A stretch of DNA of 64,000 bases from a virus. The notes beneath the pieces were generated by a model that had not been told where the DNA came from, searched no databases, and saw only the letters and a program-made list of their open reading frames with translations. The DNA lies in the IMG/VR virus record IMGVR_UViG_3300017991_000003, positions 1-64,000 of that record; one strand, written 5' to 3'. Shown piece after piece: positions 1-42,232 of this stretch. Position 1 is the first letter of the stretch, and each line of letters begins with the position of its first letter. The position numbers and the translations under genes are program-made.

Positions 1-76
1 CATTCGTTTTACCCAGACTCGGCGTCTGCTGGCGGGCAACGACGAGATCCAGATCCAGTACGAGGTGGCGTCCTGA
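1..76 (+). CDS. 3' end of an upstream CDS (partial, continues left of window)
   Basis: Open frame from position 2 ending at TGA 74..76 (...IQIQYEVAS*); GC-rich third positions. Confidence 0.3.
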   Translation, partial: IRFTQTRRLLAGNDEIQIQYEVAS

Positions 77-118
77 CCCCGTAGGGGGCCAGTACACTCT
101 CATTGAGGGCCCAAGGAC

Positions 119-1051: not shown

Positions 1052-1053
1052 GA

Positions 1054-4000
1054 ATGGCTGACCAGAGCTACACGACGACGTCCTACATCACGCTCAAGAA
1101 GCCGGACAGCGGCAGCTTCCAGAACATCTGGGACATCCCGGTCAACGAGAACTGGGACACGATCGCTGCCCTGTTCGCGGGCGCCGTCGAGGTGGGCCAC
1201 ACGCACTCTGGTGAGGACGGCCAAGGTCCGCAGCTGGATCACGTGGACCTGCTGTCGGTGGGCAGCTACACCCACGCGCAGATCGATGCCCACATCGACT
1301 CGTCGCCGCTGCACAAGAACACGCAGGTCCAGACGATCAGTGGCGACCACCTGAACAGCCCGTCGGTCACGATCGTCTCCAACGTCAGCGAGATCCAGTT
1401 CTCGAACGCCACGGTCGTCGACAAGGGCAGCGGTGTGGTGCGCGTGATCGCGCTTGGTACCAGCACGAGCCCCGAGCTCTACTCCAAGGTCCAGTCGGCT
1501 CCTGTGGCCTGGACGGACAACTTCAACTGGCCGCACGCCACCTCGATCGGCACCTACTGCTGGGAGAGCGTGCGGACGACGGATCAGCATCCTGAGTTCC
1601 TGGCCACTGGTCCTGCGGTCGGCGCTCCCGGCACCCTGGCTCGTATCGAGCTGGACGGTGCGGTCGAGCCTCAAGGCTACGCCCTTCAACACGCCACCTG
1701 CCACGTGCCGCACGGCACCGTGCAGCGGGTGACGCTCCATGTCGATCGACTCGAGGGTCCGGCGGGTGAGGCCATCGATACCACCGATGACGTCACCCTG
1801 ACGCTCGATCTGCTCTCTGCTACCATCGGCAAGAGCTTCGACAGGCCTGCGGCCTTCGGCCTCAGCCTGGTCATCAACAAGCCGGCGGGCTCCGATACGT
1901 TGGACTTCGCTTTGAGCCTTCGTCCGCATGGGACCGATGACAACCAGGAGGTGATCTGGACTGACTTTAGCGGTCCCCTGCCGTCGGAGTACGCCGGCAC
2001 CTTTGACCAGCTTCCCCAGGCCTTCCTTGCCGGCTGCCACGAGTTCAGCCTGCGCCGGGACCCGGACGAGGCTGACGCCTTCTGGCTCCAGTACTACTAC
2101 AACGAAGGCCTGGTCTTCAGGAAGTACTTCAGCACGCTGTCGGCTGATCCGACGACGGCGCTGTTCGCATCCGGCCTACAGGATCTAGTCTCCAACCTCG
2201 GCAACTGGCCGACCGACCCGCAGCCGGTCTACGGCCGCATGGGTTGGGGCCTTGGCTACAACCTTGTCTCCGGCGCTCAGCTGATCTGCGACGTGTCCTG
2301 CGCCACGGTGTGCTCGCAGGATGACGTCGAGGTCGTCACGGGTCCGGTGACGCCCTACCCCGAGGAGGTTAGCCCGCCGGGCCAAGCCGCGGCATCCCCC
2401 TGCTGCCCGGGTTACGCCGACTTTGACGGGCTTGCGGTGGGCGACGCCTGGGACTTCGATGGTCCCGGTCTCGGCCTCCCGGAGGCCCAGTGGACGATCA
2501 CAGGCATCATCGGCGACGAGTACGGCACCCAGAACGGTCCCGGCTTCGAGGTCCAGAACCTCTCGGACGGTACCTACTGGCCGGTGTTCTGCGCGCCCCC
2601 GACACTTGACACCTTCACGTCGAACCCCATCTCGGGCTACCAGGTGGATCAGACGGTTGAGCTCACCGGCATCTCACTTCCGGCGGGCAACGATGAGCAC
2701 GCCACGCTGACGATCACCCACGGCGACAGCACTTGGCCGCTGAGCTGGCTGACCCCGGGCAGCTCGCAGTTCTACAACCAGGGCGACACGATCGCTGCTG
2801 GGATCATCACGGTCTCGGATCTGACCTGGACGGCCCAGCCGGACGGCTCGAGCAAGCTGACTGTGACCTACAACACAGGCCCGAACCTGCCTTGGGGTCG
2901 TGTCCTCGACTTCCAGGTCGAGCCGGGCTACGACGTGCTGCTTGCCTCGGACTACACCGCTAGTTGGACGGCTGCTGTTGAGGTGGTGGCGCCTCCGGGC
3001 ATTGTCACGCTTCCGGGCTTCGCTGGGGTCGTGGCGTACTGGGACGATGTGACTGATCCGGCCAACCCTGAGTGGGTCTTGGCCGACGTGCTCACCCCGA
3101 TCCCCGAAGGCTCTTGGGTCTACATTACGGTCTCGGCGGCTAACTGGCCGATGGGGGCGACGTTCTGGGACGAGGGCAACGGGTTCGTTGGCTGGACCAT
3201 CCAGGACACGGCGACTGGCGGCGTGCTTCCGAACGGCGAGTACGGCATCAACTTCCTGCCCTCGAACGGCCTCTCGCTCCTGTGGAGCCAGTTCACCCCG
3301 GACACGGTTCCTAGTGATGTGGGCGGCACCCTGCCGGCCTTCATCTCTGGAGACGAGCCGCCGTCCTCGACGGCGTTCACGACCCTGCCTCCGGGCTATC
3401 AGCTAGGCACCTCAGCTCTCCCGAGCCTAGGCGCGGTCCAGATGTACGCGATCATCAAGCTGGATGATGATTACTACACCACGCAGGGCGGAAACACGCC
3501 GGTCACGCTGGCTCTGCGCAACCCGCTGACCGGTAGCGTGATGGGTACCGGCGATCTACCCGAGACGCTCATCCCGCAGGTCAATCCGCGGGCGCCTGTC
3601 ATCGACGACGCTAGTCTCTCGATCAGCACGACCACCTTCACGCCGGGCGAGGAGGATATCACCCTCTCGTTCAAAGTCTCGTACCTAGACGCGGTGGACA
3701 ACACGATTGAGCTGGGCCTCTCGTCGGGTTGGGACGCCACGATGCCGGCTACGGTGACCATCGACGGCGCTTCTCCGGCTCCCACGATGTCCCTGACCGA
3801 TAACGGCGACGGTACGGTGACCGTCGAGGTCGATAACCTCAAGCTGGGCACCAGCGGCGCGGTCCGCACCTACATCAAGAACTCCGGGATCAGCGACACG
3901 CTGCCGAATCAGGACTCGGTGGCTTGGGGTGTGGTGGATACCACTACGGCGCCTGTCATCGCCCAGGACTCCATCGCGGTTTACGAAAACGCGGCGACGG

Positions 4001-6228
4001 ACATCACGATCCGCGTCAAAGACATCCTCACATCCGCCAATGTGCGCCTCGCTGATATCACGAACTTCACGGTTCCGATCAAGGAGACCGCGGACGAGGT
4101 CTTGGCCAAGACGCCTGATGGCGAGGGCTACTACGCCTGGGACCTGCGTGTCATCGGCATCGAGACGAGTGGTGTGTGGCCCACGACTGTCAACTTGATT
4201 GTTGATAATGGCAACGGTAACACGGATACCCTAACGCTGATCTCGGTGGAGTCAGCTCAGCCGTGCATCACCGAGATCACGGTCGATGACCCCACCCCGC
4301 AGGTTAGTGGTGGCGAGCCCTTCTGGAACTTCGAGGCTGGTATTGCGAACCAACGCACCCTCTACTTCCACACCACTGGGATCAACAACACCCTACCTGA
4401 CAAGCCGTCCTTCGTACCCACTACCGACGTGGGCCCGGGAACGCTGGCACCGGTGGGCAATGTCACACTGGTGTCGGGTGCTCCGCCCGCTGCGGCCATC
4501 TGGGCCCAGGACTTCCTGCGATCGTCCGACGTCGACGCGACGACTCAGATCTCGTTCCTCTCGAACACGGCGTCGAACGGAGACCCGAAGACTTGTACGC
4601 TCTCCTTCCCCGACTCCATCGAGTTCATCGAAGTACTAGGCCTTACCTATAGCGGCTCTGGCGGCGAGGGTGATCAGTCGGCAGGTACCGACTCCTCGAA
4701 ACTGGCTCGGGCCCAAGTGGTCTTCTCCAGCGCTCCCGAGGAGGGTCACTACTCCGAGTTCACCGTCTACGGCCGCTTCTCCCCGGCTGATGGTGCTGGT
4801 AGCGACATCACGGTCGACTTCTACGACGAGAACGGCAGCTCGGTGACCTCGAGTGTGACCGTGACCTCGGCGAGCTCGACCGCGGTCAGCGGCTACGTCA
4901 AGTTCGCCGACGACACCGCGCAGCGCATCCTGCGGGTGCGCGTGACCAACTCGACGCTATCGAAGACCACGACCGGCGTCCTCAACCGCACGGTTGTGAC
5001 GCACCCGGCGCCTCGCGTCCGCGGTGCGACCATGACCCCGCCCCACGAAGGGACGACCGGGGCGACGATCACGGTGGTGGGGTCTAACCTCACGCCCCCG
5101 GATCCGCCGACCGGCGCCTCGGCTCTCAGCTACGGCTACACCTTCTTCGATAGCGCGGCCAGCGCGGTCCTCTCGTCGGTGACCCTGGTCTCGGCCTCGA
5201 GCCGGCAGCTGGTGTTCACCGCAAACGTGGCTGCTAGTACGGCTGGCGAGACGATCGGGATCGCCATTGACTATCTGGGCGGCAACACCCACCGGGCCGG
5301 CAACCTCATCACGGTCCTCGAGGAAGAGGAAAACGACGCGTCTATCACCGACGTGCGCCTGTACGCCAAGGGCTCGGACCTCACGTCCACGACCCCGACA
5401 GCGCCGCAGACCTTCATCGACGGCACGGCATGGCTCATGGTCGTGGGCACCGGCCTCGGCGCCGCCAACGTAGCCTCCGACGGCACGGGCCTCTTCATTG
5501 AGGTGGTCGGCGAGCTCGATGACGGTAGCTCCTCGAACATCGCTGAGACGCCCCCGGGCCCCGGCACCACTGAGGCGCTGGCTAGCACGTCGATCTACCC
5601 CGGCACCTTCCGGGTCCAGAGCGACACGCAGCTCTTGATCGAGGTGCCCTGCACCCCGGCCTACTCCAACGCGCGTATCCGAGTGCACCTGGTCAAGCCG
5701 GCCACGCACCCTGATGGTGCGGTCGAGTGGGACCAGGCAGTGATCGACGACACGGGTGAAGGCACGGCGCGTAACCTGCCGAACGTGGGCTTGACGACTC
5801 GTTACGGGGCTGCGGCCCGTACCCCGAAGATCAACACTGACCCCACGGCCGGCGTCACGCACTACGACGTGGCCCGGGCCTTCCAGGCCAACAGCGGCGC
5901 CGGGACCGAGGGTGATACCTTCTCGGTGACGGTCCGTCTCGAGTCGGCGGTGACTACTGCGGACGCTCCGGCGGTCGTGGCAGTGGCTGACAGCACCTAC
6001 GGGGTCGAGTTCGAGGATGTGACGGTTGCCAAGACCGCTAATCCGCTCGAGATCCAGATCACGGTCACTGTCCCCACGCCTGGGGTGAACAACACCTACC
6101 CCCTGGCGGCGTTCGATTCGGCCACGCCGGCCGTTCCGGCCCTGCGCTTTGCTAACGGGCAGCCCATCGCGGCTGTGACCCTTGGCGCGAGTGATTGGGG
6201 CAGCATCTCCACTCAGGTTCCGTTCTAG
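1054..6228 (+). CDS. giant (1724 aa) putative tail fibre / adhesin-like structural protein
   Basis: Single uninterrupted ORF; Thr/Ser/Gly/Val/Asp-rich beta-type composition; no catalytic motif recognised; ATG at 1054 three nt after the preceding stop. Confidence 0.5.
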   Translation: MADQSYTTTSYITLKKPDSGSFQNIWDIPVNENWDTIAALFAGAVEVGHTHSGEDGQGPQLDHVDLLSVGSYTHAQIDAHIDSSPLHKNTQVQTISGDHLNSPSVTIVSNVSEIQFSNATVVDKGSGVVRVIALGTSTSPELYSKVQSAPVAWTDNFNWPHATSIGTYCWESVRTTDQHPEFLATGPAVGAPGTLARIELDGAVEPQGYALQHATCHVPHGTVQRVTLHVDRLEGPAGEAIDTTDDVTLTLDLLSATIGKSFDRPAAFGLSLVINKPAGSDTLDFALSLRPHGTDDNQEVIWTDFSGPLPSEYAGTFDQLPQAFLAGCHEFSLRRDPDEADAFWLQYYYNEGLVFRKYFSTLSADPTTALFASGLQDLVSNLGNWPTDPQPVYGRMGWGLGYNLVSGAQLICDVSCATVCSQDDVEVVTGPVTPYPEEVSPPGQAAASPCCPGYADFDGLAVGDAWDFDGPGLGLPEAQWTITGIIGDEYGTQNGPGFEVQNLSDGTYWPVFCAPPTLDTFTSNPISGYQVDQTVELTGISLPAGNDEHATLTITHGDSTWPLSWLTPGSSQFYNQGDTIAAGIITVSDLTWTAQPDGSSKLTVTYNTGPNLPWGRVLDFQVEPGYDVLLASDYTASWTAAVEVVAPPGIVTLPGFAGVVAYWDDVTDPANPEWVLADVLTPIPEGSWVYITVSAANWPMGATFWDEGNGFVGWTIQDTATGGVLPNGEYGINFLPSNGLSLLWSQFTPDTVPSDVGGTLPAFISGDEPPSSTAFTTLPPGYQLGTSALPSLGAVQMYAIIKLDDDYYTTQGGNTPVTLALRNPLTGSVMGTGDLPETLIPQVNPRAPVIDDASLSISTTTFTPGEEDITLSFKVSYLDAVDNTIELGLSSGWDATMPATVTIDGASPAPTMSLTDNGDGTVTVEVDNLKLGTSGAVRTYIKNSGISDTLPNQDSVAWGVVDTTTAPVIAQDSIAVYENAATDITIRVKDILTSANVRLADITNFTVPIKETADEVLAKTPDGEGYYAWDLRVIGIETSGVWPTTVNLIVDNGNGNTDTLTLISVESAQPCITEITVDDPTPQVSGGEPFWNFEAGIANQRTLYFHTTGINNTLPDKPSFVPTTDVGPGTLAPVGNVTLVSGAPPAAAIWAQDFLRSSDVDATTQISFLSNTASNGDPKTCTLSFPDSIEFIEVLGLTYSGSGGEGDQSAGTDSSKLARAQVVFSSAPEEGHYSEFTVYGRFSPADGAGSDITVDFYDENGSSVTSSVTVTSASSTAVSGYVKFADDTAQRILRVRVTNSTLSKTTTGVLNRTVVTHPAPRVRGATMTPPHEGTTGATITVVGSNLTPPDPPTGASALSYGYTFFDSAASAVLSSVTLVSASSRQLVFTANVAASTAGETIGIAIDYLGGNTHRAGNLITVLEEEENDASITDVRLYAKGSDLTSTTPTAPQTFIDGTAWLMVVGTGLGAANVASDGTGLFIEVVGELDDGSSSNIAETPPGPGTTEALASTSIYPGTFRVQSDTQLLIEVPCTPAYSNARIRVHLVKPATHPDGAVEWDQAVIDDTGEGTARNLPNVGLTTRYGAAARTPKINTDPTAGVTHYDVARAFQANSGAGTEGDTFSVTVRLESAVTTADAPAVVAVADSTYGVEFEDVTVAKTANPLEIQITVTVPTPGVNNTYPLAAFDSATPAVPALRFANGQPIAAVTLGASDWGSISTQVPF

Positions 6229-6268
6229 CCTATCCTTCTAACTGACGGCCAACAGGGCACTTAGCACG

Positions 6269-6811
6269 ATGACACTGGTTTCTAAGCTCCACAAGCTGGC
6301 CGCGGAGGTCATGTGGGACCCGAGTACTCGCCAGATGAGTGCTCAGCCCACTAAGCCCTCGGCGCAGCAAGCTCAGCAAGATGTGCAGGCGCAGACGGCG
6401 CAGGCTCAACAGGCGATGATGCCGGCGCAGGCTCCTCAGGGTCAGCCGGCTGCTCCTCAGATGCCGATGCAGATGCCGGACATGATGGATATGGAGAACC
6501 AACGGCTCGAGAAGCTGCTCCATAACGCCAAGCTCCGGCTAGAGATCGCCAACACGGAGCAGCAGATCCAGGACGCCAAGAACCCGGAGAAGGCCGACAA
6601 GCCTAAGGATGGGAAGGCGGAGCCGGCGAAGAAGCCCAAGGCCGAGGCTAAGCCCGAGGCCAAGGACAAGGCTGAGACCAAGCCCAAACCCAAGGGGGAG
6701 GACAAGGACCCCAAGACCAAGAATCCCGCAATCCGTGCGGCGGCGGATGCTACGGCAGCCAAGGCCAAGGCGGGGAAACCCCAGAAAGCTCCTGATAAGG
6801 AGAAGGCCTAA
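6269..6811 (+). CDS. low-complexity protein (Gln/Ala-rich N-half, Lys/Glu/Pro-rich KPEAK-type C-tail)
   Basis: 180 aa ORF; strongly biased composition; stop overlaps next start (TAATG at 6809..6813). Confidence 0.5.
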   Translation: MTLVSKLHKLAAEVMWDPSTRQMSAQPTKPSAQQAQQDVQAQTAQAQQAMMPAQAPQGQPAAPQMPMQMPDMMDMENQRLEKLLHNAKLRLEIANTEQQIQDAKNPEKADKPKDGKAEPAKKPKAEAKPEAKDKAETKPKPKGEDKDPKTKNPAIRAAADATAAKAKAGKPQKAPDKEKA

Positions 6812-7839
6812 TGGACAAGCTGGCTGGCAAGATCATCGACTTCAACGACGACCCCCGGTTCGTCACTGACCTGCGTGCTCAGGGCCTCTATGGTCATGAG
6901 CTCGTTGACCCCAAGAGCCTAGACAAGCTCCCGGACTCGGCGTTCGCTATCAAACTGGCGAGCGGGGGCCGTACCCATCGTCGATTCCCGATCCACAACC
7001 GGGTGGCTACGCAGCTTTCCGCGGCCTACTTCGCTGCTGGTGTCGAGTCTGGTGATCTAGCCAAGCTCGGCTCAGCTGCTGCGGCTGCTGTGGGGTACCG
7101 CATCGGCCAGGCGTGTGAACGTTTTGGCCTTGAGGCCCCCAGCGCCTGCGCTGGACTCGAAGACCCGGGCTCGATCGAGGTCGACGTGGACGACATCCCG
7201 CTGGATGAGCCCAAGATGGCCACTGCCGAGGCCCGAGGCTACCTTGAGCAGCGTGTGGCGTCCGGCTTCGTCGAGATGGGGCCTGAGGCACGCACTTTCG
7301 CGGTCCAGTCCCTCGTCAAGGCGGCCGGTGTCGACGCGGTCACGCGCAAGGATCTGTGGGACTACTTCCCCAAGGCGCATCTGGGCCCGGACTTCGAGGA
7401 GGGAATGCACGCCCGCGAGGTCCTGGTCAAGCGTGCTGAGGGCAACCACAGTGATTTGAGCTCGTCCATGTTTGACGCGCTCATGGAGGACCTGCGTAGC
7501 GTAGATCCGCGGGAGGCCCCGACCCTTCTAGGTACCTTCGACAAGGTGGCTGGGCTGACCGACCGGTACAAGGACGGCCTCCCGGACCCCTACCAGACCT
7601 GCTGGGGCGGCTTCTCGCTGCCCAAGGAGGCTCGAGCTCGCTTCGATGGCTCTGTGGACGCCCTCTTGGCGCCTGAGCAGGAGCGTGGTACACCTGAGGA
7701 GTACCTCGTGGACCTCGAGAAGCGCTATCCGACCCACGACGTCAACTTCCCCAAGCTGGCAGCGGTAGCCAGTGCCACAGTTGATGATCGACCCTGGCCC
7801 GACAACTACAAGAAAGCCATCCGGAGGCACTTCGCATGA
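6811..7839 (+). CDS. hypothetical protein
   Basis: 342 aa ORF, coding-like codon bias, start overlaps upstream stop; no motif recognised. Confidence 0.6.
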   Translation: MDKLAGKIIDFNDDPRFVTDLRAQGLYGHELVDPKSLDKLPDSAFAIKLASGGRTHRRFPIHNRVATQLSAAYFAAGVESGDLAKLGSAAAAAVGYRIGQACERFGLEAPSACAGLEDPGSIEVDVDDIPLDEPKMATAEARGYLEQRVASGFVEMGPEARTFAVQSLVKAAGVDAVTRKDLWDYFPKAHLGPDFEEGMHAREVLVKRAEGNHSDLSSSMFDALMEDLRSVDPREAPTLLGTFDKVAGLTDRYKDGLPDPYQTCWGGFSLPKEARARFDGSVDALLAPEQERGTPEEYLVDLEKRYPTHDVNFPKLAAVASATVDDRPWPDNYKKAIRRHFA

Positions 7840-8192
7840 GCCAAGAACACGCAGATGCCCTGATTACGGGCATGATCGCTGGTCTTGAGAAGCATGCTGG
7901 CCAGATCGGTAGCATGATGGACAAGCGTATCGAGCTCCAGAATGCAAACTCGGCTATGCGCGGCGCGGGGAAGGCGGTTGAGCCGGCCGGGCGCGCGTAC
8001 CAACGCCGCCTCGTGGCCGGTAAGCTAAGACGCGGGCGCGCCGCCGGCCTATCGAATACCGAGAACATCCGTCGAGTCAGGGGCTTTGAGCAGACCCGGC
8101 TCGACGCGGCTGAGGGGACACTGGCCGCGACCAGGAGAGCACCTCTACGCGACCGCGCCGGCTGGGCCGCTAAGAGACTCCTTCGTAAGTAG
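7836..8192 (+). CDS. hypothetical protein (Arg/Ala-rich)
   Basis: 118 aa ORF, ATGA overlap with upstream gene. Confidence 0.45.
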   Translation: MSQEHADALITGMIAGLEKHAGQIGSMMDKRIELQNANSAMRGAGKAVEPAGRAYQRRLVAGKLRRGRAAGLSNTENIRRVRGFEQTRLDAAEGTLAATRRAPLRDRAGWAAKRLLRK

Positions 8193-8194
8193 CC

Positions 8195-8812
8195 GTGAAC
8201 CAGGGTGAGGCTCTCTTCCGATCCAAGGGCATCTGGCCCGGGGTCTACCAAGCGGTCCTGAACAAGAAGTTCGGGCCCGCCTGGCTTACGTGGGAGCCCG
8301 AGACCCTCTGGGCAGAGATCAAGCGCGTCTGGAAGGCTGAGCCGAGCGGCGAGATCCAGTCCAAGATCCTCGCTACCCGGATCGCGATGACTACCGACTT
8401 GTTCTACACGGACGCCCCGGCGTTCGAGAACATGATCCTGGCGGTCAACGATGTCGAGTATGACCCCGAGCTCCTCCAGCTGGCTACCCCGGAAGAGATC
8501 GTTTACGGTGTGCGCATGCTGTCGCCTTTGCGTGACGGCTCCTTCAACCGAGAAGTGACGGGCTACATCCGAGCCTGCTGCCGTCGGGCCGGCCTCCTGC
8601 GCTATCCCGACGACCTGCGCTTTGCTGAGCCGCAGTACCCAGACAACCTGGCGCGCATCGTCTCTCAGATCACCACTAAAGAAGCTGGCGACGACCTCGA
8701 CCCGCACGATACCGTAGCGGTGCAGTCCAACAATCTGTACCGGATCCAGGTGTACGTGAACGAGAAGCTGGCCCAGATGAGCACTGACGCTCTGACCCCC
8801 TCCACAGAATGA
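8195..8812 (+). CDS. hypothetical protein
   Basis: 205 aa ORF starting with GTG at 8195; stop overlaps next start. Confidence 0.55.
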   Translation: MNQGEALFRSKGIWPGVYQAVLNKKFGPAWLTWEPETLWAEIKRVWKAEPSGEIQSKILATRIAMTTDLFYTDAPAFENMILAVNDVEYDPELLQLATPEEIVYGVRMLSPLRDGSFNREVTGYIRACCRRAGLLRYPDDLRFAEPQYPDNLARIVSQITTKEAGDDLDPHDTVAVQSNNLYRIQVYVNEKLAQMSTDALTPSTE

Positions 8813-9339
8813 CCGAGACATGGAAAGAGGTCCCGGGCTACCCCGGGTACGAGGTCTCTGATCAGGGGCGGGTACGATCGTGGCGATCCAAACGCTACCC
8901 CGGGAAGCGTCGCAAGAAGCCGTGGGTTCTGCGCCCGTGGACGAACTCGGAGGGGTACCTCCGCGTCAGCCTTTGTAAGGACGGGAAGCGGGATACGCGG
9001 CTTGTGCATCGCGTAGTGCTCTCGGCGTTTGATCCTGACCCGCCCGCAGAGCGGTTCCAGGGAGAGCATCTAGACGGGAGCAAGGACAACAACAAGCTAG
9101 CTAACCTCCGTTGGTCGACTCCAAAGGAGAACAACGCTCGGAAGCATGAGCACGGTACTCAGCCGAAGCGCGGTGAGGAGTCACACCAAGCCCGTCTAAC
9201 CGAGGATCAGGTTCGAGAGATCCGTCGGCTGAAGGCGGAGGAGGGGTGGTCGTTCACCAAGCTGGGCAAGCACTTCGGTGTCAGCGATGTGGCTTGCTCC
9301 AAGATCGTTCGCCGTAAGACCTGGAGTCACGTCAAATGA
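8809..9339 (+). CDS. free-standing HNH homing endonuclease (NUMOD4-like N-terminus)
   Basis: N-terminal W-x-x-VPGYPGYEVSDQGRVRS motif; HNH core EHLDGSKDNNKLANLRWSTPKENN (about 9064..9129). Confidence 0.7.
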   Translation: MTETWKEVPGYPGYEVSDQGRVRSWRSKRYPGKRRKKPWVLRPWTNSEGYLRVSLCKDGKRDTRLVHRVVLSAFDPDPPAERFQGEHLDGSKDNNKLANLRWSTPKENNARKHEHGTQPKRGEESHQARLTEDQVREIRRLKAEEGWSFTKLGKHFGVSDVACSKIVRRKTWSHVK

Positions 9340-11231
9340 GCTATCAGTCAAGCCAGGGTGTGACAGGGCGCGGTGTCCGCAACGATCGGACCCTGAACAC
9401 GTACCCGCACCAGTTCTTCGATCCGAGCACGAGCTACATCCCTCACTCGGTGAAGGAGATGTACCGGTGGTGCCAGTTCCTGTACATGACGCACTCCGAG
9501 ATCGCCCCGGTGATCAACAAGAAGTGCGCGTACGTCATCACCAAGCTGATCTACGACTCCGACGTCGATGCGAACGTCAAGGCGTGGAAGAACCTGCTGG
9601 AAGAGAACATCAACATCCGGGAGATGGAGTACAAGCTCCTCCTGGACTTCGAGGTCTATGGCAACGCCTTCGTCTCGATCCACTACCCCTTCGAGCGCTA
9701 TCTGACCTGCCCTAACGGTGCGTGTAAGCAGCAGCATCCGGCGCGGAACATCGACTGGGAGTACCGAGATCACGAGTTCCGGGCCAAGTGCCCTGAGTGC
9801 GGTACTACGGGGGTGTTCAAGCCGCATGATCGCAAGATCCGCAACCGCCGGCGCATCAAGCTGATCCGCTGGAACCCCAAGTTTGTCAACATCCGCTACA
9901 ACCCGTTTACCGACGACTCGGTCTACATCTACCGGATCCCCAAATGGATTCAGAAGAAGCTGACCACGGTCAAGGAGAACAAGGAGCTGGTGTCGGGCAC
10001 TCCGCTGGTCATCCTCGAGGCGGTGCGTAAGAAGCGCGACGTCGAGCTCGACCGCGACAACATCTACCACTTCAAGAACGCCAGTATCAGTCTCGAGGAC
10101 GACGCCTTTGGCATGCCCCCCATGCTGGCGGTCTTCAAGGACGCCTGGTTGTTCCAGACGTTCCGCCGCGCGCAAGAGGCCATCGCCCTTGAGCACATCC
10201 TCCCGATGACTCTCCTGATCCCGGCGCCCACGGCAGCCGGCGTCTCCCCGCACATGAGCGTGGATCTCGGGGACTGGTCGGATCGGATGAACCTGATCAT
10301 CAAGAAGTGGCGTCGAGACCCCAACGCGCTCTTCACCATCCCGTTCCCGGCTCAGGTCGAGAACGTGCGGGGTGACGCCCAAGCGCTCGCTGTCCACAAC
10401 GACATGACCCAGATCCGCCAGCAGATCACCGGCGGCCTGGACGTGCCCCAGGAGTTCATCTACGGCGGCCTGAACTGGTCTGGCTCGTCGATCAGCCTAC
10501 GAGTGCTCGAGAACCTGTTCATCGGCCGAAAGGAGCAGCTGGATGCGTTCCTCCAGTGGGTGACCGACCGCCTTCAGCGGTTCTGCCTGCTACCGGAGAT
10601 GCACATCCGTCACCGTGACTTCAAGATGGCCGACGACGCTCAGCAGAAGCAGATCGCCCTCAGCCTGCGCCAGACCAACACGATCTCTGACCAGACCTCG
10701 ATCGAGGAGCTGGGCTTCGACTACGAGCGTGAGGAGGCGCGCAAGAGGCGCGAGGAAGAGGATCGACTGGCGGCCATGGAGCGCTCACAGCTTCGCCAGG
10801 CTGAGACGCAAGGCAAGGTCATGGTCCTCCAGGCGGAGTTCCAGGCCAACGCCGAGGCTGCCCAGATGCGCCAGCAGCAAGAGCAAGAGGCGAGGGCCAC
10901 CCAAGAGGGGTACGACACGACTCCTCCGGCGGAGCCAGGCATGGAGGGCGCTCCCGGCGAGCCCGGAGCTCCGATGCCGCCCCAAGGCCCCGGCGACCCT
11001 CAGCAGGCCCCTGACCAGACGGACCCGGTCATTCTCGACATGATGGCCAACCACCTGATCAAGGGGACGCCCCCGCATCTCCTGGAGCAGGAGCTCGCGG
11101 CGCTCGAGACCACGAACCCGGCACTGGCCAAGAAGGTCCGTGAGCGCATCAAGCTGATTCAGAAGCAGACGGCTGACTACAAGCCGCTGCCTGAGCAGAA
11201 ACCCCCGCGTCGCGAGTCGACCCCCGTCTGA
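9336..11231 (+). CDS. large virion-associated protein with internal Cys4 Zn-ribbon and C-terminal coiled-coil/acidic tail (possible portal; unresolved)
   Basis: 631 aa; CPNGAC...CPEC ribbon; C-terminal EEARKRREEEDRLAAMERSQLRQAE coiled-coil-like tail as often seen in portals; no direct portal signature recognised. Confidence 0.3.
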   Translation: MSYQSSQGVTGRGVRNDRTLNTYPHQFFDPSTSYIPHSVKEMYRWCQFLYMTHSEIAPVINKKCAYVITKLIYDSDVDANVKAWKNLLEENINIREMEYKLLLDFEVYGNAFVSIHYPFERYLTCPNGACKQQHPARNIDWEYRDHEFRAKCPECGTTGVFKPHDRKIRNRRRIKLIRWNPKFVNIRYNPFTDDSVYIYRIPKWIQKKLTTVKENKELVSGTPLVILEAVRKKRDVELDRDNIYHFKNASISLEDDAFGMPPMLAVFKDAWLFQTFRRAQEAIALEHILPMTLLIPAPTAAGVSPHMSVDLGDWSDRMNLIIKKWRRDPNALFTIPFPAQVENVRGDAQALAVHNDMTQIRQQITGGLDVPQEFIYGGLNWSGSSISLRVLENLFIGRKEQLDAFLQWVTDRLQRFCLLPEMHIRHRDFKMADDAQQKQIALSLRQTNTISDQTSIEELGFDYEREEARKRREEEDRLAAMERSQLRQAETQGKVMVLQAEFQANAEAAQMRQQQEQEARATQEGYDTTPPAEPGMEGAPGEPGAPMPPQGPGDPQQAPDQTDPVILDMMANHLIKGTPPHLLEQELAALETTNPALAKKVRERIKLIQKQTADYKPLPEQKPPRRESTPV

Positions 11232-11611
11232 TGGGCGCCAAGGGCAGTGGGCGTACACGCATCGAAGCGGACCTGATGCCTCGGGTCCGTGAGGGCTTTG
11301 CACGTCGTCTCCAAGACATGGGGACGATGAGCAAGCTCGGCGCCATCCTGCTCAAGCCCAACCAAGGGACACAGCGCCGCATCCGGCGTGAGACCCTCAA
11401 TATGGACACGGTCGGTGATCAGAAGCGTTGGCAGATGCTGCACAACGACTCCGAGCGCTATGAGGTCATCACGGCCAAGGACAGCAACACCAACCGCGGT
11501 AACTACTGCCACGTGACCTACATCGAGAAGGGTGACGACCTCCCCCTCGTCAAGAGCGAGAGCGAGCTCCGTTCTGAGGATAAAGAGCGCATCAAAGAGG
11601 AGGGCGGCTGA
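11231..11611 (+). CDS. hypothetical protein
   Basis: 126 aa ORF; ATGA-type overlaps at both ends. Confidence 0.5.
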   Translation: MGAKGSGRTRIEADLMPRVREGFARRLQDMGTMSKLGAILLKPNQGTQRRIRRETLNMDTVGDQKRWQMLHNDSERYEVITAKDSNTNRGNYCHVTYIEKGDDLPLVKSESELRSEDKERIKEEGG

Positions 11612-14600
11612 TGCTCGAAGGGCAGCACTTCCGGCAGTTCAAAGAGGCGCTGACTCGGTCGGAGGGCATCGTCAAGGGTATGTTCCCGATCGAGAGCCCC
11701 ACGAAGCGGCTCGAGGTCACGAACCTGCGTTGGACGAACGTAGGCCCGGACGTGGTCTTCGACGTCGAGAAGCAGAAGCAGGCCAAGCTGAAGGAGCAGT
11801 CGATCAACGCTGTTCTGGTCGGTGACGTCACGCTGCGTGAGCTCGGCTCCAAAGGGAAAGTCCTCGACCAGACCAAGCGCTACCCGATCCTCTCGGTGCC
11901 GCACCTGACGATGAACGCTGGCTACATCGTCAACGGCAAAGAGCAGCAGGTCGTCAACCAGTTCCGTCTGCGCCCTGGCATCTACACCCGGTTCACGGGG
12001 GACGACAACGTCGAGGCGTTCCTCAACACCACGGCGATCGGTACTTACAAGATCCTCCTCGACCGCTCTACCGGTGTGATCCGTATGCGGGTCGGCACGG
12101 CCGCACGCACCCCGATCTACTCGGTTCTGATCGCGGCTGGGCTGACTGATGCCGAGATCAAGACACTGCTGGGGACGGAGCTCTACGCGGAGAACAAGCG
12201 GGCGGCCAAGCCGGATCAGGACATCCCCAAGCTCCTGAAGCGGATGCGCCCGTACCTCAACCAGCCGGCGGAGCTGGGCGAGAAGTCAAAGCTCGTGCGT
12301 CAGTATCTGGAGTCGAAGCCCCTCGACCCCGCCGTGAACAAGGTCACGGTGGGCGAGGGTCTCGACCGCATCGACCGCAATGCCCTCGTGGCGGCGATCA
12401 AGAAGGTCCTCAAGCTGTCTAAGGGTGAGGCAGAGCCCGACGACACGGAGAGCCTTGCCTTCAAGTACATCCTCTCGATCGAGGACTTCGTGCCCGAGCG
12501 GCTCCAGAAGGCGGCCGACGGGCTCAAGTACAAGATCCAGGGCGACATGCGCCGCCGGGATGAGATCCGCTTGATCCTCCCGCCCAACCGCCTGAGCCAG
12601 CCGGTGGAGTCCTTTTTCACCACCTCGGAGTTCACGCGCTACTCGAGCCAGCACAACCCGCTGGACATGGCGGCGATCTCGAGCCTGACCACCACCATGG
12701 GTGATGGCGGGATCTCGAGCTCCCATGCGATCACCGACGAGGTGCGTACGATCCACCCGAGCCACTACGGTCTCCTGGATCCCATGCACACCCCGGAGGG
12801 GTGTTGCAGCGCTGACATGGAGGTCATGACGGATCAAGGCTGGGTTGCGTGGCCCGACGTAGACCGGACCACTCGGTTTGCTTGCCTAGACGCTGATCAA
12901 GGCCTTACCTATCACCGCGCCTCCGAGCTACACGTCTACGACCACGACGGGCCTCTCTACGGGTTCAAGTCGGAGACCCTGGAATACCTGCTGACCCCGA
13001 ATCATCGTCAGTGGGTCCGCCCGATTGAGGATCGATCGACGCGTGGGTATCGGTTTGAGACCGCGGAGGAGATGTACGGTAAACGTCGGCGAGTCCGCAT
13101 CGGCGGGCATTTGGCCTACGAGGGTCAGGCCGTCGATACCTGGCAGCTCCCTGAAATCCCTAAGGGAAGCAACTCGCAGAAGGTTTTCCCGGCCTTTGCT
13201 ATTGAGGACTGGGCTGAGTTCCTTGGCTGGTACCTGAGCGAAGGGAGCAGTCGGGGTTACGTGACTTCGATCACGCAGTATGAGGCTGCGAACCCGGAGA
13301 ATGTGGCTCAGATCGAGGCGCTGTTGACACGCATGCAGGTCGCGTGGAGCCGCAGCTCCAGGAGCTTCTCGATCCCAGGTAAGCAGCTAGTCAGCTACCT
13401 GCGTCAGTTCGGCCACTCCGATACCAAGTACATCCCTAAAGAGGCGTTCGACTTCCCGGCGGCGGCGCGTGAGGCCATGCTCGAGGCGCTAATGCTCGGA
13501 GACGGTCGCAAGGGCAAGGGCCGATGCTCTTGCTACTGCACTACATCTGAGCAGCTCGCCAAGGACGTGCAGCGCTTGGCCTTCGGCCTAGGGGTGTCGA
13601 GCAAAATCACCTTTGAGCCGGATACGCGGGAGGAGCACTACCGCGGGTGCTGGATCGTCCATCTCCACGCGCTCACTGAGCGTCAGGTGCTGCCACAAAT
13701 GCGCGCAGCAGGTAACGGCCAGTTCATCGAGGAATACCAAGGCAAGGTCTACTGCGCCACGGTTCCTGGTGGCCTGCTGTACATCCGTCGAGCCGGCAAG
13801 AGCGGTTTCTGGTCCGGCAATAGCAAGGTGGGCGTGACCGGTCACTTGGCCCTGGGCGCGCGCAAGAAGGGGCAGACCCTCTACGTCCCGGTCTATGACG
13901 CCAAGACGGGCAAGCGCGTGGAGAAGTCGGTTCAAGACCTGGACCAGGCCACCATCGCGTTCCCTGATCAGTACGACAACCTGCCCGACAAGCCGGGCGC
14001 GTCGGTCAAGGGCAAGCCCACGACCAAGCTGAAGAAGGTCAAGGCCCGTAGTCGTAACGAGTTCACGGAGGTGAGTCCGTCGGCTGTGGACTACATCTTC
14101 GTCAGCTCCGACAGCTTCTTCAGCTCGACCACGGCTGCGATTCCCTTCCTCCCCAACAACGACGCCAACCGCGTCCTGATGGGTGACAAGCATATCGAGC
14201 AGTCGGTGAACCTTGAGGACCCCGACGCGCCGATGGTCCAGCACCGCATCCGAGGCCGGGGCTATGAGGAGATGTTCGGGGAGCGCCTAGCCCCCCGGGC
14301 TATCGACCCCAAGACCGGCAAGCCCGTCGGCGGAGAGGTCCTCGAGGTCACCAAGACGCATATCACCATCCGGCCGGATGGCGGCGGCCGTCGACGCATC
14401 AAGGTCCCGATCCACGACCACTACCCGCTCAACAGCCGGACGTTCCTGCACGACGAGCCGGTGGTGAAGAAGGGTGACAAGGTCAAGCCTGGCCAGATCC
14501 TGGCCCGCAACAACTTCACCAAGGACGGAGACCTGGCGGTCGGCAAGAACCTCCGAGTCGCCTACACCGCGTACAAGGGCTACAACTTCGAGGACGGCAT

Positions 14601-17600
14601 CGTCATCTCGGAAGGGGCGGCTAAGAAGTTGACCTCGGTGCACAAGTACGAGGCCCGCGTTGAGAAGGGCAAGGGCATCACGGTCGGTGCAGACGCCTAC
14701 GCTGCCGCCTACCCCTCGGAGCTGGAGCATATCCGCGACCGTGCCCGGCGCTACGACGCTGTGGGTGTTATCAAGAAGGGCCAGCAGGTCGTCAAGGGCG
14801 ATGTCCTGATCCCCGCCATCCAGGAGGTCGAGGCGCATCCCGAGTACGACTACAAGCGTCTGCACCGCAGCGCCGGTCTCCGGCACATGGATATCAGCGA
14901 GACCTGGAACCACGACTTCCCTGGTGAGGTCGTAGACGTGGTCAAGACTCGGACATTCGTGAAGGTCGTGGTCAAGAGCAAGGAACCGATGCAGGTCGGT
15001 GACAAGCTGAGCTCGCGCCACGGCGCCAAGGGCATCGTCGTCAAGATCATCCCTGATGAGGAGATGTACAAGGACGAGGAAGGTGCGACGATCGATATCC
15101 TGCTCAACCCGGCGGGGGTGCCTGGTCGCGTCAACACGGGTCAGATGCTCGAAGCCGCGGCCGGCAAGCTGGCCCGTAAGACGGGCAAGAAGTACTACAC
15201 CGACAACTTCAACGAGAAGGGCAGCACGATCAAGAACCTCCGCAAGGAACTAGCGGGGGCCGGGATCTCCGATGAGGAGACGATCGTCGACCCGAAGACG
15301 GGGCACAAGCTCGAACGCGTCCTCGTCGGCGACACGCACATCTACAAACTGACCCACCAGGTCACGGGCAAGATGAAGGCCCGCGCCTCTGTGGGTGAGC
15401 CCTACTCGGTGGACGAGCAGCCCGTGAAGGGATCAGGGTCAGGTGCCCAGCGCATCGGCATCCTCGACACCTTCAGCCTGCTTTCGGGCGACGCCACGGC
15501 GTTCCTCGAGGATGCCTTCGGCCTCAAGAGCCAGAAGAACGACGAGTACTGGCGTGCCCTCCAGACTGGGCAAACACTGCCGCCTCCGAAGACCCCGTTC
15601 ATCGAGGAGAAGTTCGTGGCCATGCTCATTGGCGCGGGCATCGACCTCAAACAGAAAGGCAGTCGCATCGACGCGGGGCCGCTGACGGATGCTGAGGTTC
15701 TCTCAATGTCCAATGGCGCCATCGAGCGCCCGGTGGCGGTCAAGGCATCGAACCTCAAACCCGAGCGTGGCGGGCTCTTCGATCCCGGCAAGACCGGCGG
15801 TCCTGGCGGCAACTACTGGAACCATATCGATCTAGCCTCTGAGGTCGTGCACCCGCTGATGACCGACGCTGCGGCGTCCGTGGGCGGGTTCAAGACCAAG
15901 AAGGAGATGGACCAGATCATCCAGGGCCTGCTCGCGGTCACCGAGGAGGGCGAGGTCGTGGAGGCAGGCACCGCGGGTGCCGTGGCCGGTGGCTCGGGAG
16001 TGAAGCGCCGACTCGCTACGATCAACGTTCCGAGGGCCATCAAAGAGACCGAGTTGGTGGCGGCGACCGCCAAGGGCGCCAAGCTGGACAAGGCCCACAA
16101 ACGGCTGCGCTACCTGCGCTCGCTTCAAGCCAGTGGCCACTCGGCTGTTGATGCCTACATCAACAAGACCCTCCCGGTCATCCCCGCCAAGTTCCGTCAG
16201 ATCGCTCCGATGCCCGACGGCAGCCTGAGTGTGGCTGACGCCAACCACGGCTACCGAGAGGTCCTTCTCATCAACGAGAAGATCAAGCAGCTGAAGGCTC
16301 TCGGAGTCGACGAGCAGAACCTGCGAGCACTCAACAAGGCTCTGGCGGACGCTACGGCCGGCCTCGTAGGCACGGCGCCTCCGATCAGCCGAGGCAAGGT
16401 CTTCCGCGGCTTCGTCAGTCAGATCCACGGCCCGACGCCTAAGTCGGGTCTGGCGCAGTCGAAGCTCATGGGACGCAACCAAGACCTGAGCGGCCGGTCG
16501 ACTGTGATCCCCAACCCCAAGCTGGGGATGGACGAGGTCGGTATCCCGGCTGAGATCGCCTACAAGATCTACAAGCCCTTCGTCATCAAGCGTCTCGTCA
16601 CCGCCGGCCACAAGCCGCTAGATGCCCGCTCCATGGTCGAGCAGGGCCACCCGGCCGCCCGTCGTGCGCTCGAGGTGGAGGCTGAAGACCGCCCGGTGCT
16701 GATGAACCGCGCGCCCTCACTGCACAAGTTCAACATCCAGGCCCTCAAGCCCCGGGTGATCGACGGTAAGGCGGTCGAGGTCAACCCGCTCATCGTGAGC
16801 GGCTACAACATGGACTTCGACGGGGATACGGCCGGTCTACACGTTCCGGTCTCTGAAGAGGCCCGGCGCGAGGCTCGTGAGAAGCTGCTCCCGTCGCGCA
16901 ACCTGTTCAGCCCTCGGGAGGAGTTCGTGGTCCATGCCCCGACCAAGGAGACGATCCTCGGGGTGTACCTGATGACTACGCCCAAGGGACTTGCCTCCAA
17001 GTCGTTCTCCTCCGACCAGGAGATGGTCAAGGCATACCAGGCCAAGGAGATCAAGGTCAACGAAGCGGTGAAGGTCCAAGGCGCTGTGACCTGCGCCGGT
17101 CAGGCCATCTTCAACACGGCGCTTCCTATGGATCTGCGCGTGGGTCGTACGTCGGTGACCGGTCCGCGTTTGAGCCAGCTCCTGGTTCGCATCGGTCGGC
17201 AGTTGGGCCCCGACCGGGCCGCTCAAGTGATCTCGAAGATCAAGGACCTAGGCAACCACTACGTGACCGAGGTCGGGTTCTCCGTGAGTCTCCGGGACCT
17301 TGAGCTTGATACGAGCAAGCGGGATCAGATCGTCAACAAGCTCAAACGAGACGCCAAGACCAAGGGGTTCGATGAGGCGGCTGGCGAGGCGCTCGAAGAC
17401 ATCGCAGCGCTGCTGGCGTCGGCAGAGGATAACCGGTTCGTGGAGGCTGGCATCACATCCGGAGCCCTAGGCTCCAAAGGCATCCACCGGATGCTGGCGA
17501 GCACCGTGGCAGTGACGGATCACAAGGGCAAGACGGTCCCGATCCCGGTCGAGAAGTCCTATGCCGAGGGCCACGATCTAGGTACCTACTTGGGTACGAC

Positions 17601-18765: not shown

Positions 18766-19124
18766 CCAAGCGCAGCGCAGCCTACATCGAGGGTCTCCTG
18801 AAGGAGGCCGCAGGTAAAAAGAAGAAGAAGGAGAAAGACAGCCAGCCTAAGAGCTTGACTCGCTCCGACATCGACAAGGCCCGACTGAACCCGGACCTGA
18901 TGCGTCGTATGCGGATGCGTTCGAGCGTGGCTGTCCCCCTCAAAGGCGATGAGCTGCTTCAGGTGCGCCGGCTGGCGCGTCGGAACCTTCCCTTGATGCG
19001 TCAGCGCAACCCCAAGCTGACCGAGAAGGCCCTTTACGATCGCCTGGTGGCGCTGATCCAGAGCCGCCGGCCCGAGATGCGCAAGAAGCTCCTGGCAGCT
19101 GTAGCCACGGAGTACGGGACCTAG
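18762..19124 (+). CDS. hypothetical small basic protein
   Basis: 120 aa ORF; ATGA overlap with RNAP stop; Lys/Arg-rich. Confidence 0.5.
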   Translation: MTKRSAAYIEGLLKEAAGKKKKKEKDSQPKSLTRSDIDKARLNPDLMRRMRMRSSVAVPLKGDELLQVRRLARRNLPLMRQRNPKLTEKALYDRLVALIQSRRPEMRKKLLAAVATEYGT

Positions 19125-19126
19125 GA

Positions 19127-20699: not shown

Positions 20700-20720
20700 A
20701 CTGGACCTTAGAGTCTTCCC

Positions 20721-21074: not shown

Positions 21075-21075
21075 C

Positions 21076-23128: not shown

Positions 23129-23135
23129 GTCCGCG

Positions 23136-26040: not shown

Positions 26041-26115
26041 GTTGCTCCTTGACCGCAGCAACTTAGGATTGGCTAATAGGTTGCGCTCCTTGGACGCAGT
26101 CTCGTACCATTTCAC

Positions 26116-26137: not shown

Positions 26138-26156
26138 CTTCAGCTGAGCAACACGA

Positions 26157-38947: not shown

Positions 38948-38956
38948 TCTAAGACC

Positions 38957-42214: not shown

Positions 42215-42232
42215 TCCCGACGGACCTGAAAC

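What the first reader, a model, noticed from the sequence alone, without database searches (positions are those of the whole stretch)
8809..9339. Free-standing HNH homing endonuclease upstream of the RNAP region
NUMOD-like N-terminus plus EHLDGSKDNNKLANLRWSTPKENN core. It sits between structural-type genes about 2 kb upstream of the intein-containing RNAP, so two independent selfish elements cluster here.
Basis: partly seen in the sequence, partly recalled or inferred. Interest (0 to 1): 0.45.

Follow-up and report, generated by a model that had tools for sequence, protein, structure and literature searches.

The report
Free-standing HNH homing endonuclease before portal gene
This is an ordinary selfish "homing endonuclease" gene of a very common phage family, inserted exactly between two conserved genes (the downstream one is the portal gene) of an uncultivated large phage; it is a routine case and new only as one more instance.

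Summary
ORF 8809..9339 (+, 176 aa) is a real gene with NUMOD4 + HNH_3 + C-terminal HTH domains (Pfam, PHROG_59 E 1.5e-46, PADLOC "HEase"). Its only solved relative is the nicking homing endonuclease I-HmuI, by sequence (E 3e-11) and by full-length fold match of a pLDDT 94.7 model. H87, N99 and N108 align with I-HmuI H75, N87 and N96 and are invariant or nearly invariant in the subfamily.

The two closest HNH-less relatives inspected at base level (portal 74% and 59% identical) have the flanking genes 3 nt apart. None of the roughly 80 related loci recovered has a homologue of this HNH within the flanks fetched. Here the ORF fills that spacer, with ATGA stop/start overlaps at both ends, no promoter, no terminator and no surrounding intron.

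The downstream gene is the portal protein by fold; the upstream 205-aa gene is unidentified. The RNAP intein 3.5 kb downstream is real and independent: it is absent in one relative and sits at a different RNAP site in another. These are the only two selfish elements detected in the 64 kb, and their proximity is not significant.

Nuclease activity, the target site and homing itself are inferred, not shown. Verdict: a new member of a known kind, low interest.

The parts
8809..9339 (+). Free-standing HNH homing-endonuclease gene (176 aa plus stop)
   Evidence: ORF; Pfam NUMOD4 + HNH_3; PHROG_59 E 1.5e-46; I-HmuI 1U3E E 3e-11; full-length fold match to 1u3e_M; PADLOC HEase 2e-19. No homologue of it at or near this junction in any of the related loci recovered.
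8815..8973 (+). NUMOD4 N-terminal beta-sheet DNA-binding module (aa 3-55)
   Evidence: Pfam PF07463 E 3.9e-11; beta strands E5-E65 in the AF2 model; aligns to the I-HmuI N-terminal domain.
8998..9135 (+). HNH_3 catalytic core (aa 64-109). H87 = nt 9067-9069, N99 = nt 9103-9105, N108 = nt 9130-9132.
   Evidence: Pfam PF13392. H87, N99 and N108 align to I-HmuI H75, N87 and N96. H87 and N99 are invariant and N108 is conserved in at least 90% of 34 homologues.
9172..9315 (+). C-terminal three-helix HTH DNA-binding domain (aa 122-169)
   Evidence: Weak Pfam HTH_31 / MRP-L20 hits; helices H132-145, H149-156 and H160-167 in the model; local fold matches to KorA/DeoR-type HTH domains, and the I-HmuI match extends over the full length.
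8809..8812 (+). Upstream junction: ATGA overlap of the up205 stop codon and the HNH start codon
   Evidence: Sequence. There is no SD-like motif in the 25 nt upstream, so translation by termination-reinitiation coupling is inferred.
9336..9339 (+). Downstream junction: ATGA overlap of the HNH stop codon and the portal start codon. A GGAG 13 nt upstream of the portal ATG lies inside the HNH 3' end.
   Evidence: Sequence; SD scan. HNH-less relatives have TAGcccATG (L002) and TGAtctATG (L004) at this point.
8195..8812 (+). Conserved upstream flanking gene (205 aa, function unknown)
   Evidence: Homologues lie upstream of the portal gene in most related loci, directly adjacent in the closer relatives. 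No Pfam, PHROG, NCBIfam or PDB profile hit.
9336..11231 (+). Portal protein gene (631 aa), the most likely carrier of the homing site in its conserved 5' part
   Evidence: AF2 model pLDDT 77.8. The Foldseek PDB top 50 are all phage portal proteins (145 hits at E <= 0.001). The 5' region about 70-180 nt into the gene is the best-conserved DNA near the junction. The target assignment is an inference by analogy with T4 mobE.
12802..13824 (+). Independent second selfish element: 341-aa intein (C398...N738, +1 Ser739) in the fused beta-beta' RNAP gene 11611..18765
   Evidence: L002 RNAP reads TPEG-D-KVGV without it. Weak LAGLIDADG_3 hit at aa 622-681. L004-L006 carry a homologous intein (30% identical, 33%) at the RHGSKGIVT|C site instead.

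Best explanation
Window 8809..9339 encodes a free-standing homing endonuclease of the I-HmuI-like HNH family, built as an N-terminal NUMOD4 beta-sheet module, a beta-beta-alpha-metal HNH core and a C-terminal helix-turn-helix domain. The gene has been inserted, as a bare ORF, into the 3-nt spacer between a conserved 205-aa gene and the portal gene of an uncultivated phage of about 175-193 kb. It has no promoter of its own. It is read from the operon transcript and is probably translated at a low level by stop/start (ATGA) coupling. Inferred mechanism, by analogy with I-HmuI and T4 MobE: during co-infection with a related phage that lacks it, the protein binds a long asymmetric site in a conserved flanking sequence (most likely the 5' part of the portal gene) and nicks one strand. 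Replication or processing converts the nick into a break. Recombinational repair from the HNH-carrying genome then copies the gene and its flanking markers into the recipient. Shown here: family membership, intact catalytic residues, fold, exact intergenic insertion, presence/absence polymorphism and slightly atypical codon composition. Inferred: catalytic activity, nicking rather than double-strand cutting, the target site and current mobility.
For: Domains: NUMOD4 E 3.9e-11 and HNH_3 E 9.7e-7, both above the curated cut-offs; PHROG_59 HNH endonuclease E 1.5e-46; PADLOC 'HEase' E 2.1e-19. The only PDB sequence relative is I-HmuI 1U3E, E 3e-11. The AF2 model has pLDDT 94.7, and its only strong fold match is 1u3e_M over 179 columns, E 3.7e-8. 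H87 and N99 are invariant and N108 nearly invariant in 34 homologues; they align to I-HmuI H75, N87 and N96. Insertion: L002/L011 (portal 74-75% identical) and L003-L006/L012 (59%) have the two flanking genes 3 nt apart with no HNH. None of the 80 further related loci has a homologue of it within the flanks fetched. ATGA overlaps at both junctions. No promoter-like or + strand terminator-like site in 6000-12000. No Rfam hit in 8000-10000, so no intron. GC3 is 0.72 and the CAI-like index 0.59, against 0.76-0.86 and 0.63-0.76 for most neighbours, the same shift as the intein. The closest homologues are at most 48% identical and sit in unrelated phage contexts. The family occurs in 2,578 phage records. 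Analogy: T4 mobE is a promoterless free-standing HNH gene in the nrdA/nrdB spacer that nicks the 5' region of nrdB in HEG-less T2 (PMC2790892). [quoted passage not shown]
Against: There is no functional evidence of any kind. No closely related (more than 90% identical) HNH-less allele was found, so the homing site cannot be read off and the time of insertion is unknown. All five contigs carrying the gene are identical across it, so purifying selection cannot be tested. The residue before the catalytic His is Glu (Asp74 in I-HmuI), and that position is variable in this subfamily, so the metal ligation may differ from I-HmuI. GC content is not anomalous, and one ordinary small neighbouring ORF has an equally low codon index, so the composition argument is weak.
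Confidence: 0.82

Rival explanations
1. A domesticated or decaying homing endonuclease. The gene arrived by homing but no longer spreads. It persists either because its 3' end now supplies the ribosome-binding signal and translational coupling for the portal gene, or because it is used as a weapon or regulator, for example to exclude markers of co-infecting relatives or as a DNA-binding repressor through its HTH.
For: The GGAG 13 nt before the portal ATG lies inside the HNH coding sequence, and both junctions are ATGA overlaps, so a clean deletion would disturb portal translation. This parallels the nrdB promoter located inside mobE. The gene is fixed and identical in five contigs from at least four samples. 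Nucleases related to I-HmuI have been recruited for inter-element conflict (PMC9410903, listed).
Against: The catalytic His and both Asn residues are intact, and the model is a confident complete three-module enzyme. Nothing distinguishes it from active family members. No other lineage of the phage family keeps it, which argues against a selected host function.
Confidence: 0.12
2. A packaging-associated HNH endonuclease of the HK97 gp74 type that works with terminase and portal in genome cutting. On this reading, its position next to the portal gene would be functional.
For: It lies directly upstream of the portal gene. Many phages encode an HNH next to their cos site and terminase genes (PMC3592412 abstract).
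Against: It belongs to the NUMOD4/HNH_3 I-HmuI-like family. It has only two cysteines (C56, C163) and therefore lacks the [CxxC]2 zinc site that PMC3592412 describes for the packaging type. The large terminase gene is 15 kb away at 24211..26040. Relatives with homologous portal genes lack the HNH at this junction and within the fetched flanks, so it is unlikely to be a required part of the packaging machine.
Confidence: 0.03
3. A chance ORF in a GC-rich genome, or a mis-called frame.
For: GC-rich DNA gives many long spurious ORFs; several overlap this region on the minus strand.
Against: Profile E-values down to 1.5e-46, thousands of homologues and a pLDDT 94.7 model.
Confidence: 0.01

Closest known systems
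I-HmuI (Bacillus phage SPO1; PDB 1U3E) and its isoschizomer I-BasI
   Same: The domain order is the same (N-terminal beta-sheet NUMOD4-type module, HNH core, C-terminal HTH). The only significant PDB sequence hit is I-HmuI (E 3e-11), and so is the only strong fold hit, over the full length. The catalytic His and both Asn residues are conserved.
   Different: [quoted passage not shown] This gene is free-standing in an intergenic spacer. Sequence identity in the fold alignment is about 26%. The residue before the catalytic His is Glu rather than Asp. Nicking activity is shown for I-HmuI (PMC3017599) and only inferred here.
T4 MobE (the mob family of free-standing HNH endonucleases)
   Same: A free-standing, promoterless HNH gene placed in the short spacer between two conserved, co-transcribed genes, with expression signals of the downstream gene embedded in its 3' end. 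MobE nicks the 5' region of the downstream gene in HEG-less phage T2 and is inherited together with flanking markers (PMC2790892).
   Different: Sequence relatedness to the Mob proteins was not tested here. In Mob proteins the HNH domain is N-terminal with a variable C-terminal domain, whereas here the HNH core follows a NUMOD4 module. No internal terminator was found here. The flanking genes are different (an unknown gene and the portal, rather than nrdA and nrdB).
Annotated NUMOD4-HNH_3 'HNH endonuclease' genes of cultured phages (for example Ralstonia phage C22, Achromobacter JWAlpha, mycobacteriophage Lesedi gp65)
   Same: About 40-42% identity over the full length and the same length of about 175 aa; 989 phage records cover at least 80% of the query.
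   Different: They sit in unrelated genomes and genomic positions. None is more than 48% identical.
HK97 gp74-type packaging HNH
   Same: An HNH-superfamily nuclease located near a packaging or head-assembly gene.
   Different: A different HNH family: the packaging type has a [CxxC]2 zinc site and lies next to terminase and cos (PMC3592412). That site and that position are both absent here, and the gene is dispensable in relatives.

Membership tests
HNH (beta-beta-alpha-metal) endonuclease, HNH_3 / I-HmuI-like subfamily | Profile match to the HNH_3 core above the curated threshold | tested here: met
   PF13392, 28.8 bits against a 24.8 cut-off, aa 64-109; PHROG_59 E 1.5e-46.
HNH (beta-beta-alpha-metal) endonuclease, HNH_3 / I-HmuI-like subfamily | Catalytic His (general base) plus the two Asn residues of the motif (I-HmuI H75, N87, N96) | tested here: met
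   H87, N99 and N108 align to them. H87 and N99 are invariant and N108 is conserved in at least 90% of 34 homologues. The role of these residues in I-HmuI is from my own knowledge of Shen et al. 2004, which I did not read here.
HNH (beta-beta-alpha-metal) endonuclease, HNH_3 / I-HmuI-like subfamily | Acidic metal ligand immediately before the catalytic His (Asp74 in I-HmuI) | tested here: inconclusive
   Glu86 here. The position is variable (E, L, R, A, C, N and others) across the subfamily alignment, so it is not a conserved requirement in this clade.
HNH (beta-beta-alpha-metal) endonuclease, HNH_3 / I-HmuI-like subfamily | Overall three-module fold like I-HmuI (N-terminal beta-sheet, HNH core, C-terminal HTH) | tested here: met
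   Model pLDDT 94.7; Foldseek hit 1u3e_M, E 3.7e-8, 179 aligned columns, probability 1.0. TM is only 0.56, as expected for an elongated multi-domain protein modelled without DNA.
Free-standing homing endonuclease gene | Not embedded in an intron or intein; lies between intact genes | tested here: met
   Both flanking ORFs are full length compared with their relatives. No Rfam family in 8000-10000. ATGA junctions.
Free-standing homing endonuclease gene | Sporadic presence/absence at an otherwise conserved locus among related genomes | tested here: met
   Present only in this phage (five identical contigs). Absent from L002/L011, L003-L006/L012 and all other related loci recovered.
Free-standing homing endonuclease gene | Site-specific nicking or cleavage of the endonuclease-less allele near the insertion point | not testable with these tools
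   Needs biochemistry or in vivo break mapping.
Free-standing homing endonuclease gene | Unidirectional gene conversion (super-Mendelian inheritance) in mixed infection | not testable with these tools
   The phage is uncultivated and no host is known (one search gives only MAG contigs from four different phyla).
Packaging-associated HNH (HK97 gp74-like) | [CxxC]2 zinc-binding site in the HNH domain | tested here: not met
   Only C56 and C163 in the protein. The feature is as stated in the PMC3592412 abstract.
Packaging-associated HNH (HK97 gp74-like) | Encoded next to terminase genes or cos, and conserved together with the packaging module | tested here: not met
   TerL is at 24211..26040, 15 kb away. 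The HNH is missing from relatives that share the portal gene.
Anti-phage defence system component | Match to a defence-system protein model with partner genes nearby | tested here: not met
   The only PADLOC hits are the generic 'HEase homing endonuclease' models. The neighbouring genes have no hits.

The most novel reading that the evidence does not exclude
The HNH enzyme nicks the conserved 5' part of the portal gene of co-infecting relatives. The resulting long co-conversion tracts would carry not only the HNH gene but also the portal-RNAP segment, including the RNAP intein 3.4 kb away. That would be a 'trans-homing' or marker-exclusion module like T4 mobE/I-TevIII, giving this lineage an advantage in mixed infections among the related ~190-kb phages. 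The evidence neither supports nor excludes this: the two elements co-occur here, both are absent in L002, and only two lineages are informative.
Probability: 0.08. Interest if true: 0.4.

Novelty: new member of a known kind. Interest (0 to 1): 0.15.

Why it matters
It matters little by itself. It is one more free-standing HNH homing endonuclease, from a family present in thousands of phage genomes. Its practical uses are three. It marks the up205/portal junction as an insertion point. It gives a clean natural plus/minus pair (this phage against L002/L011) for anyone wanting to map a new long-site nicking enzyme. It also flags, together with the polymorphic RNAP inteins, that this poorly annotated family of ~175-195 kb environmental phages exchanges DNA in co-infection. 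The surrounding genome is more interesting than the HNH: it has a single-chain beta-beta' RNAP plus a sigma factor, and a portal family with no match in any of the profile libraries searched.

Tried and rejected
1. DNA similarity of 6200-12000 to 50,697 phage records gave no match, so relatives had to be found through proteins.

2. A closely related HNH-less allele was sought to read off the homing site. The IMG/VR and metagenome scans gave nothing between 100% and 75% portal identity, so the target site remains undefined.

3. A second copy of the HNH, or of the intein, was sought in the window and in all loci. None was found.

4. The larger up205/portal gaps in distant relatives were examined as possible alternative endonuclease insertions. 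They hold small ORFs with a shared N-terminal motif and no evident endonuclease; this was judged by reading the translations and was not profile-scanned.

5. Identification of the upstream 205-aa gene failed with Pfam, PHROGs, NCBIfam and a PDB profile search.

6. A sequence-profile search of the portal against PDB failed; only the fold search identified it.

7. Strain polymorphism for a selection test: all five contigs are identical over the HNH.

8. A host was sought through genome contigs. Only MAG contigs binned to four unrelated phyla were found, probably mis-binned phage contigs.

9. The packaging-HNH, defence-system and chance-ORF readings were rejected (see rivals).

10. A literature search for phages with a fused beta-beta' RNAP gave only general jumbo-phage reviews.

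Full report
**Observation**

The quoted core EHLDGSKDNNKLANLRWSTPKENN is residues 86-109. It is not a chance ORF:
- Pfam gives NUMOD4 (aa 3-55, E 3.9e-11) and HNH_3 (aa 64-109, E 9.7e-7), both above their curated cut-offs. There are also weak HTH-type hits at aa 122-169.
- PHROG_59 'HNH endonuclease' matches with E 1.5e-46.
- The best PADLOC model is the generic 'homing endonuclease' (E 2.1e-19).
- tblastn finds relatives in 2,578 phage records, 989 of them covering at least 80% of the query, all below 60% identity.

**The protein**

The only solved structure with detectable sequence similarity is I-HmuI of Bacillus phage SPO1 (1U3E, E 3e-11). In that alignment H87, N99 and N108 fall on I-HmuI H75, N87 and N96.

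In an alignment of 34 homologues (34-48% identical), H87 and N99 are invariant and N108 is conserved in at least 90%. The residue preceding the His is Glu here and Asp in I-HmuI, and it varies freely in this subfamily. I therefore do not treat it as a defect.

The protein has only two cysteines, so it lacks the [CxxC]2 zinc site of the packaging-type HNH enzymes (PMC3592412 abstract).

An AlphaFold2 model built on this alignment is confident (mean pLDDT 94.7). Its only strong Foldseek match in the PDB is I-HmuI, aligned over 179 columns, which is the whole protein (E 3.7e-8). The next hits are I-PpoI (His-Cys box), and the C-terminal three-helix bundle matches KorA/DeoR-type HTH domains. The protein is therefore a complete three-module I-HmuI-like enzyme.

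**The insertion**

The window has no DNA match in the phage collection, so I found relatives through the downstream 631-aa protein: six IMG/VR loci and 80 metagenome loci.
- L001 and L007-L010 are the same phage. They are identical across the HNH, apart from one substitution at 8268 in L009. The longest contigs are 174,660 and 193,018 bp.
- The nearest different phage is L002/L011 (downstream protein 74-75% identical, upstream protein 68-69%). There the two flanking genes are separated by three bases...GCC TAG ccc ATG AGT....
- The next group is L003-L006/L012 (59% and 47-48%), with ...AAG TGA tct ATG AGC....
- In the window the HNH ORF occupies exactly this spacer. Its ATG overlaps the upstream stop (ATGA, 8809-8812), and its stop overlaps the downstream ATG (ATGA, 9336-9339).
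- None of the 90 loci other than the same-phage contigs contains a homologue of the HNH within the flanks fetched (tblastn E <= 1e-3).
- In more distant relatives the junction is wider (0.3-2.4 kb). It holds small variable ORFs with a shared N-terminal F-x-D-E-L-x-K-x-A-like motif. I saw no endonuclease among them, judging by the translations only, without a profile scan.
- No Rfam family is detected in 8000-10000, so the gene is free-standing and not intron-borne.
- There is no sigma-70-like promoter in 6000-12000, and no terminator-like site on the + strand.
- The 25 nt upstream of the HNH ATG contain no SD-like motif, whereas a GGAG 13 nt before the downstream ATG lies inside the HNH coding sequence.
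- GC content is unremarkable. GC3 (0.72) and a codon-adaptation index computed against the large neighbouring genes (0.59) are lower than in most neighbours (0.76-0.86 and 0.63-0.76) and equal to those of the RNAP intein (0.74 and 0.59). One small ordinary ORF is just as low, so this is weak support for foreign origin.
- The closest homologues elsewhere are at most 48% identical. The two I examined lie in unrelated phage contexts: one next to an S24 repressor, MT-A70 and GcrA genes, the other next to a head-decoration gene.

**The neighbours**

The downstream 631-aa protein has no Pfam, NCBIfam or PDB sequence-profile hit, and only a marginal PHROG match of unknown function (E 0.0011). An AF2 model (pLDDT 77.8) matches phage portal proteins exclusively: the top 50 hits are all portals, and 145 hits have E <= 0.001. 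One homologue (P0139, 1,098 aa) carries an intein with a LAGLIDADG domain, which shows that this gene is a target of selfish elements in the family.

The upstream 205-aa protein could not be identified. 'Between structural-type genes' is therefore half right.

Elsewhere the window encodes a large terminase subunit (24211..26040), a sigma-70-type factor, a RecA-like protein, helicases and RuvC.

**The 'two selfish elements' claim**

The 2,384-aa ORF 11611..18765 is a fused beta-beta' RNAP. Residues 398-738 (nt 12802..13824) are an intein: the sequence reads TPEG|CCSADME...FWSGN|SKVGV, where L002 reads TPEG-D-KVGV in a 2,041-aa protein. There is a weak LAGLIDADG_3 hit inside it.

L004-L006 lack an intein at that site. 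They carry a homologous one (30% identical, 33%) after RHGSKGIVT, in the conserved GDK...RHG.KG region of beta.

A Pfam scan of the other ORFs of the window, with the 31 not yet scanned joined into two polyproteins, found no further HNH, GIY-YIG, LAGLIDADG or intein domain. With only two elements, lying 3.5-4 kb apart in 64 kb has a probability of about 0.12 by chance (my estimate). The proximity is explained well enough by portal and RNAP being adjacent, highly conserved genes.

**Mechanism**

The shown facts fit the standard model for free-standing phage homing endonucleases. The best-studied parallel is T4 mobE. It is a promoterless HNH gene in the nrdA/nrdB spacer, it depends on upstream transcription, it has the nrdB promoter embedded in its 3' end, and it makes a strand-specific nick in the 5' part of nrdB of the HEG-less phage T2. 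It is inherited at high frequency together with flanking DNA (PMC2790892). I-HmuI and I-BasI likewise nick one strand at a degenerate 24-bp site, and the nick is assumed to be turned into a break by replication (PMC3017599).

By analogy, I infer that this enzyme nicks a conserved site close to its insertion point in HNH-less relatives. The 5' part of the portal gene, about 70-180 nt into the ORF, is the best-conserved DNA near the junction. I further infer that the gene is copied in by recombinational repair. None of this is demonstrated.

**Rivals**

- A packaging HNH of the HK97 gp74 type deserved consideration, because the gene abuts the portal. It is rejected on family, the missing zinc site, the 15-kb distance from the terminase, and its absence from relatives with the same portal.
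- A domesticated or immobile remnant cannot be excluded. The portal's SD-like signal inside the HNH would select against clean loss, as in mobE. I give this reading about 0.12.
- A chance ORF is excluded.

**Verdict**

This is a new instance of a very common, well-understood kind of element. Interest is low (0.15).

Noticed in passing
window 11611..18765 (+); L002 10276..16401; L004 10314..17480: The phage encodes a bacterial-type RNAP with beta and beta' fused in one 2,384-aa polypeptide (Rpb2_6, Rpb1_1/2/3/5 domains). A sigma-70-type factor lies at 44771..45619 (-). The fusion is conserved in relatives (2,041 aa without the intein). I found no paper describing such a phage family in two literature look-ups.
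   Followed up: partly
window 12802..13824; L004 about 12708..13750: The RNAP intein is polymorphic in the family. In this phage it sits at TPEG|C. It is absent in L002/L011. In L004-L006 a homologous intein (30-33% identical) sits at RHGSKGIVT|C, a different conserved motif of the beta part. The window's intein ends ...SGN|S, with Gly rather than His as the penultimate residue.
   Followed up: partly
window 9336..11231; proteins P0046-P0165: The portal family has no Pfam or NCBIfam model, only a marginal PHROG match, and no name from any source. It was recognisable only by predicted fold. It contains an invariant four-Cys cluster (C125, C130, C152, C155) that looks like a zinc ribbon inserted in the portal. 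One homologue (P0139, 1,098 aa) carries an intein with a LAGLIDADG domain.
   Followed up: partly
L021, L024, L026-L029, L031, L035, L038, L048-L052, L054-L060 (between the up205 and portal homologues); possibly window 7836..8192 and 34413..35781: In distant relatives the up205/portal junction holds one to three tandem small or medium ORFs (70-350 aa). They share an N-terminal motif such as MNxFxxGFxDELxKxA or FVDELxKEAG and are followed by Gly/Ala-rich or basic tails. Window ORFs at 34413..34883, 34888..35319 and 35323..35781, and perhaps 7836..8192, begin with similar-looking motifs. That resemblance is by eye only. Function is unknown.
   Followed up: no
L093-L096 (genome contigs): Portal relatives (30-36% identical) sit on 92-200 kb contigs of MAGs assigned to Myxococcales, Acidobacteriota, Dependentiae and Phycisphaerae. 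These are probably phage contigs swept into bins, so they give no reliable host.
   Followed up: no
window 1054..6228 (+): A 1,724-aa ORF with no Pfam hit lies upstream of the block. It is conserved in length in L002 (1,726 aa) and L004 (1,788 aa).
   Followed up: no
window 1..64000 versus ENA contig k141_2423138: Locus L007 (contig range 5809-12339) is identical to window 5809-12339 at the same coordinates. The window therefore appears to be the first 64 kb of that 174,660-bp contig.
   Followed up: partly
window 51915..53525 (-): A 536-aa RecA-like protein in which the Pfam RecA match covers only aa 234-345. The remainder is unexplained, and no intein domain was detected at E <= 0.001.
   Followed up: no
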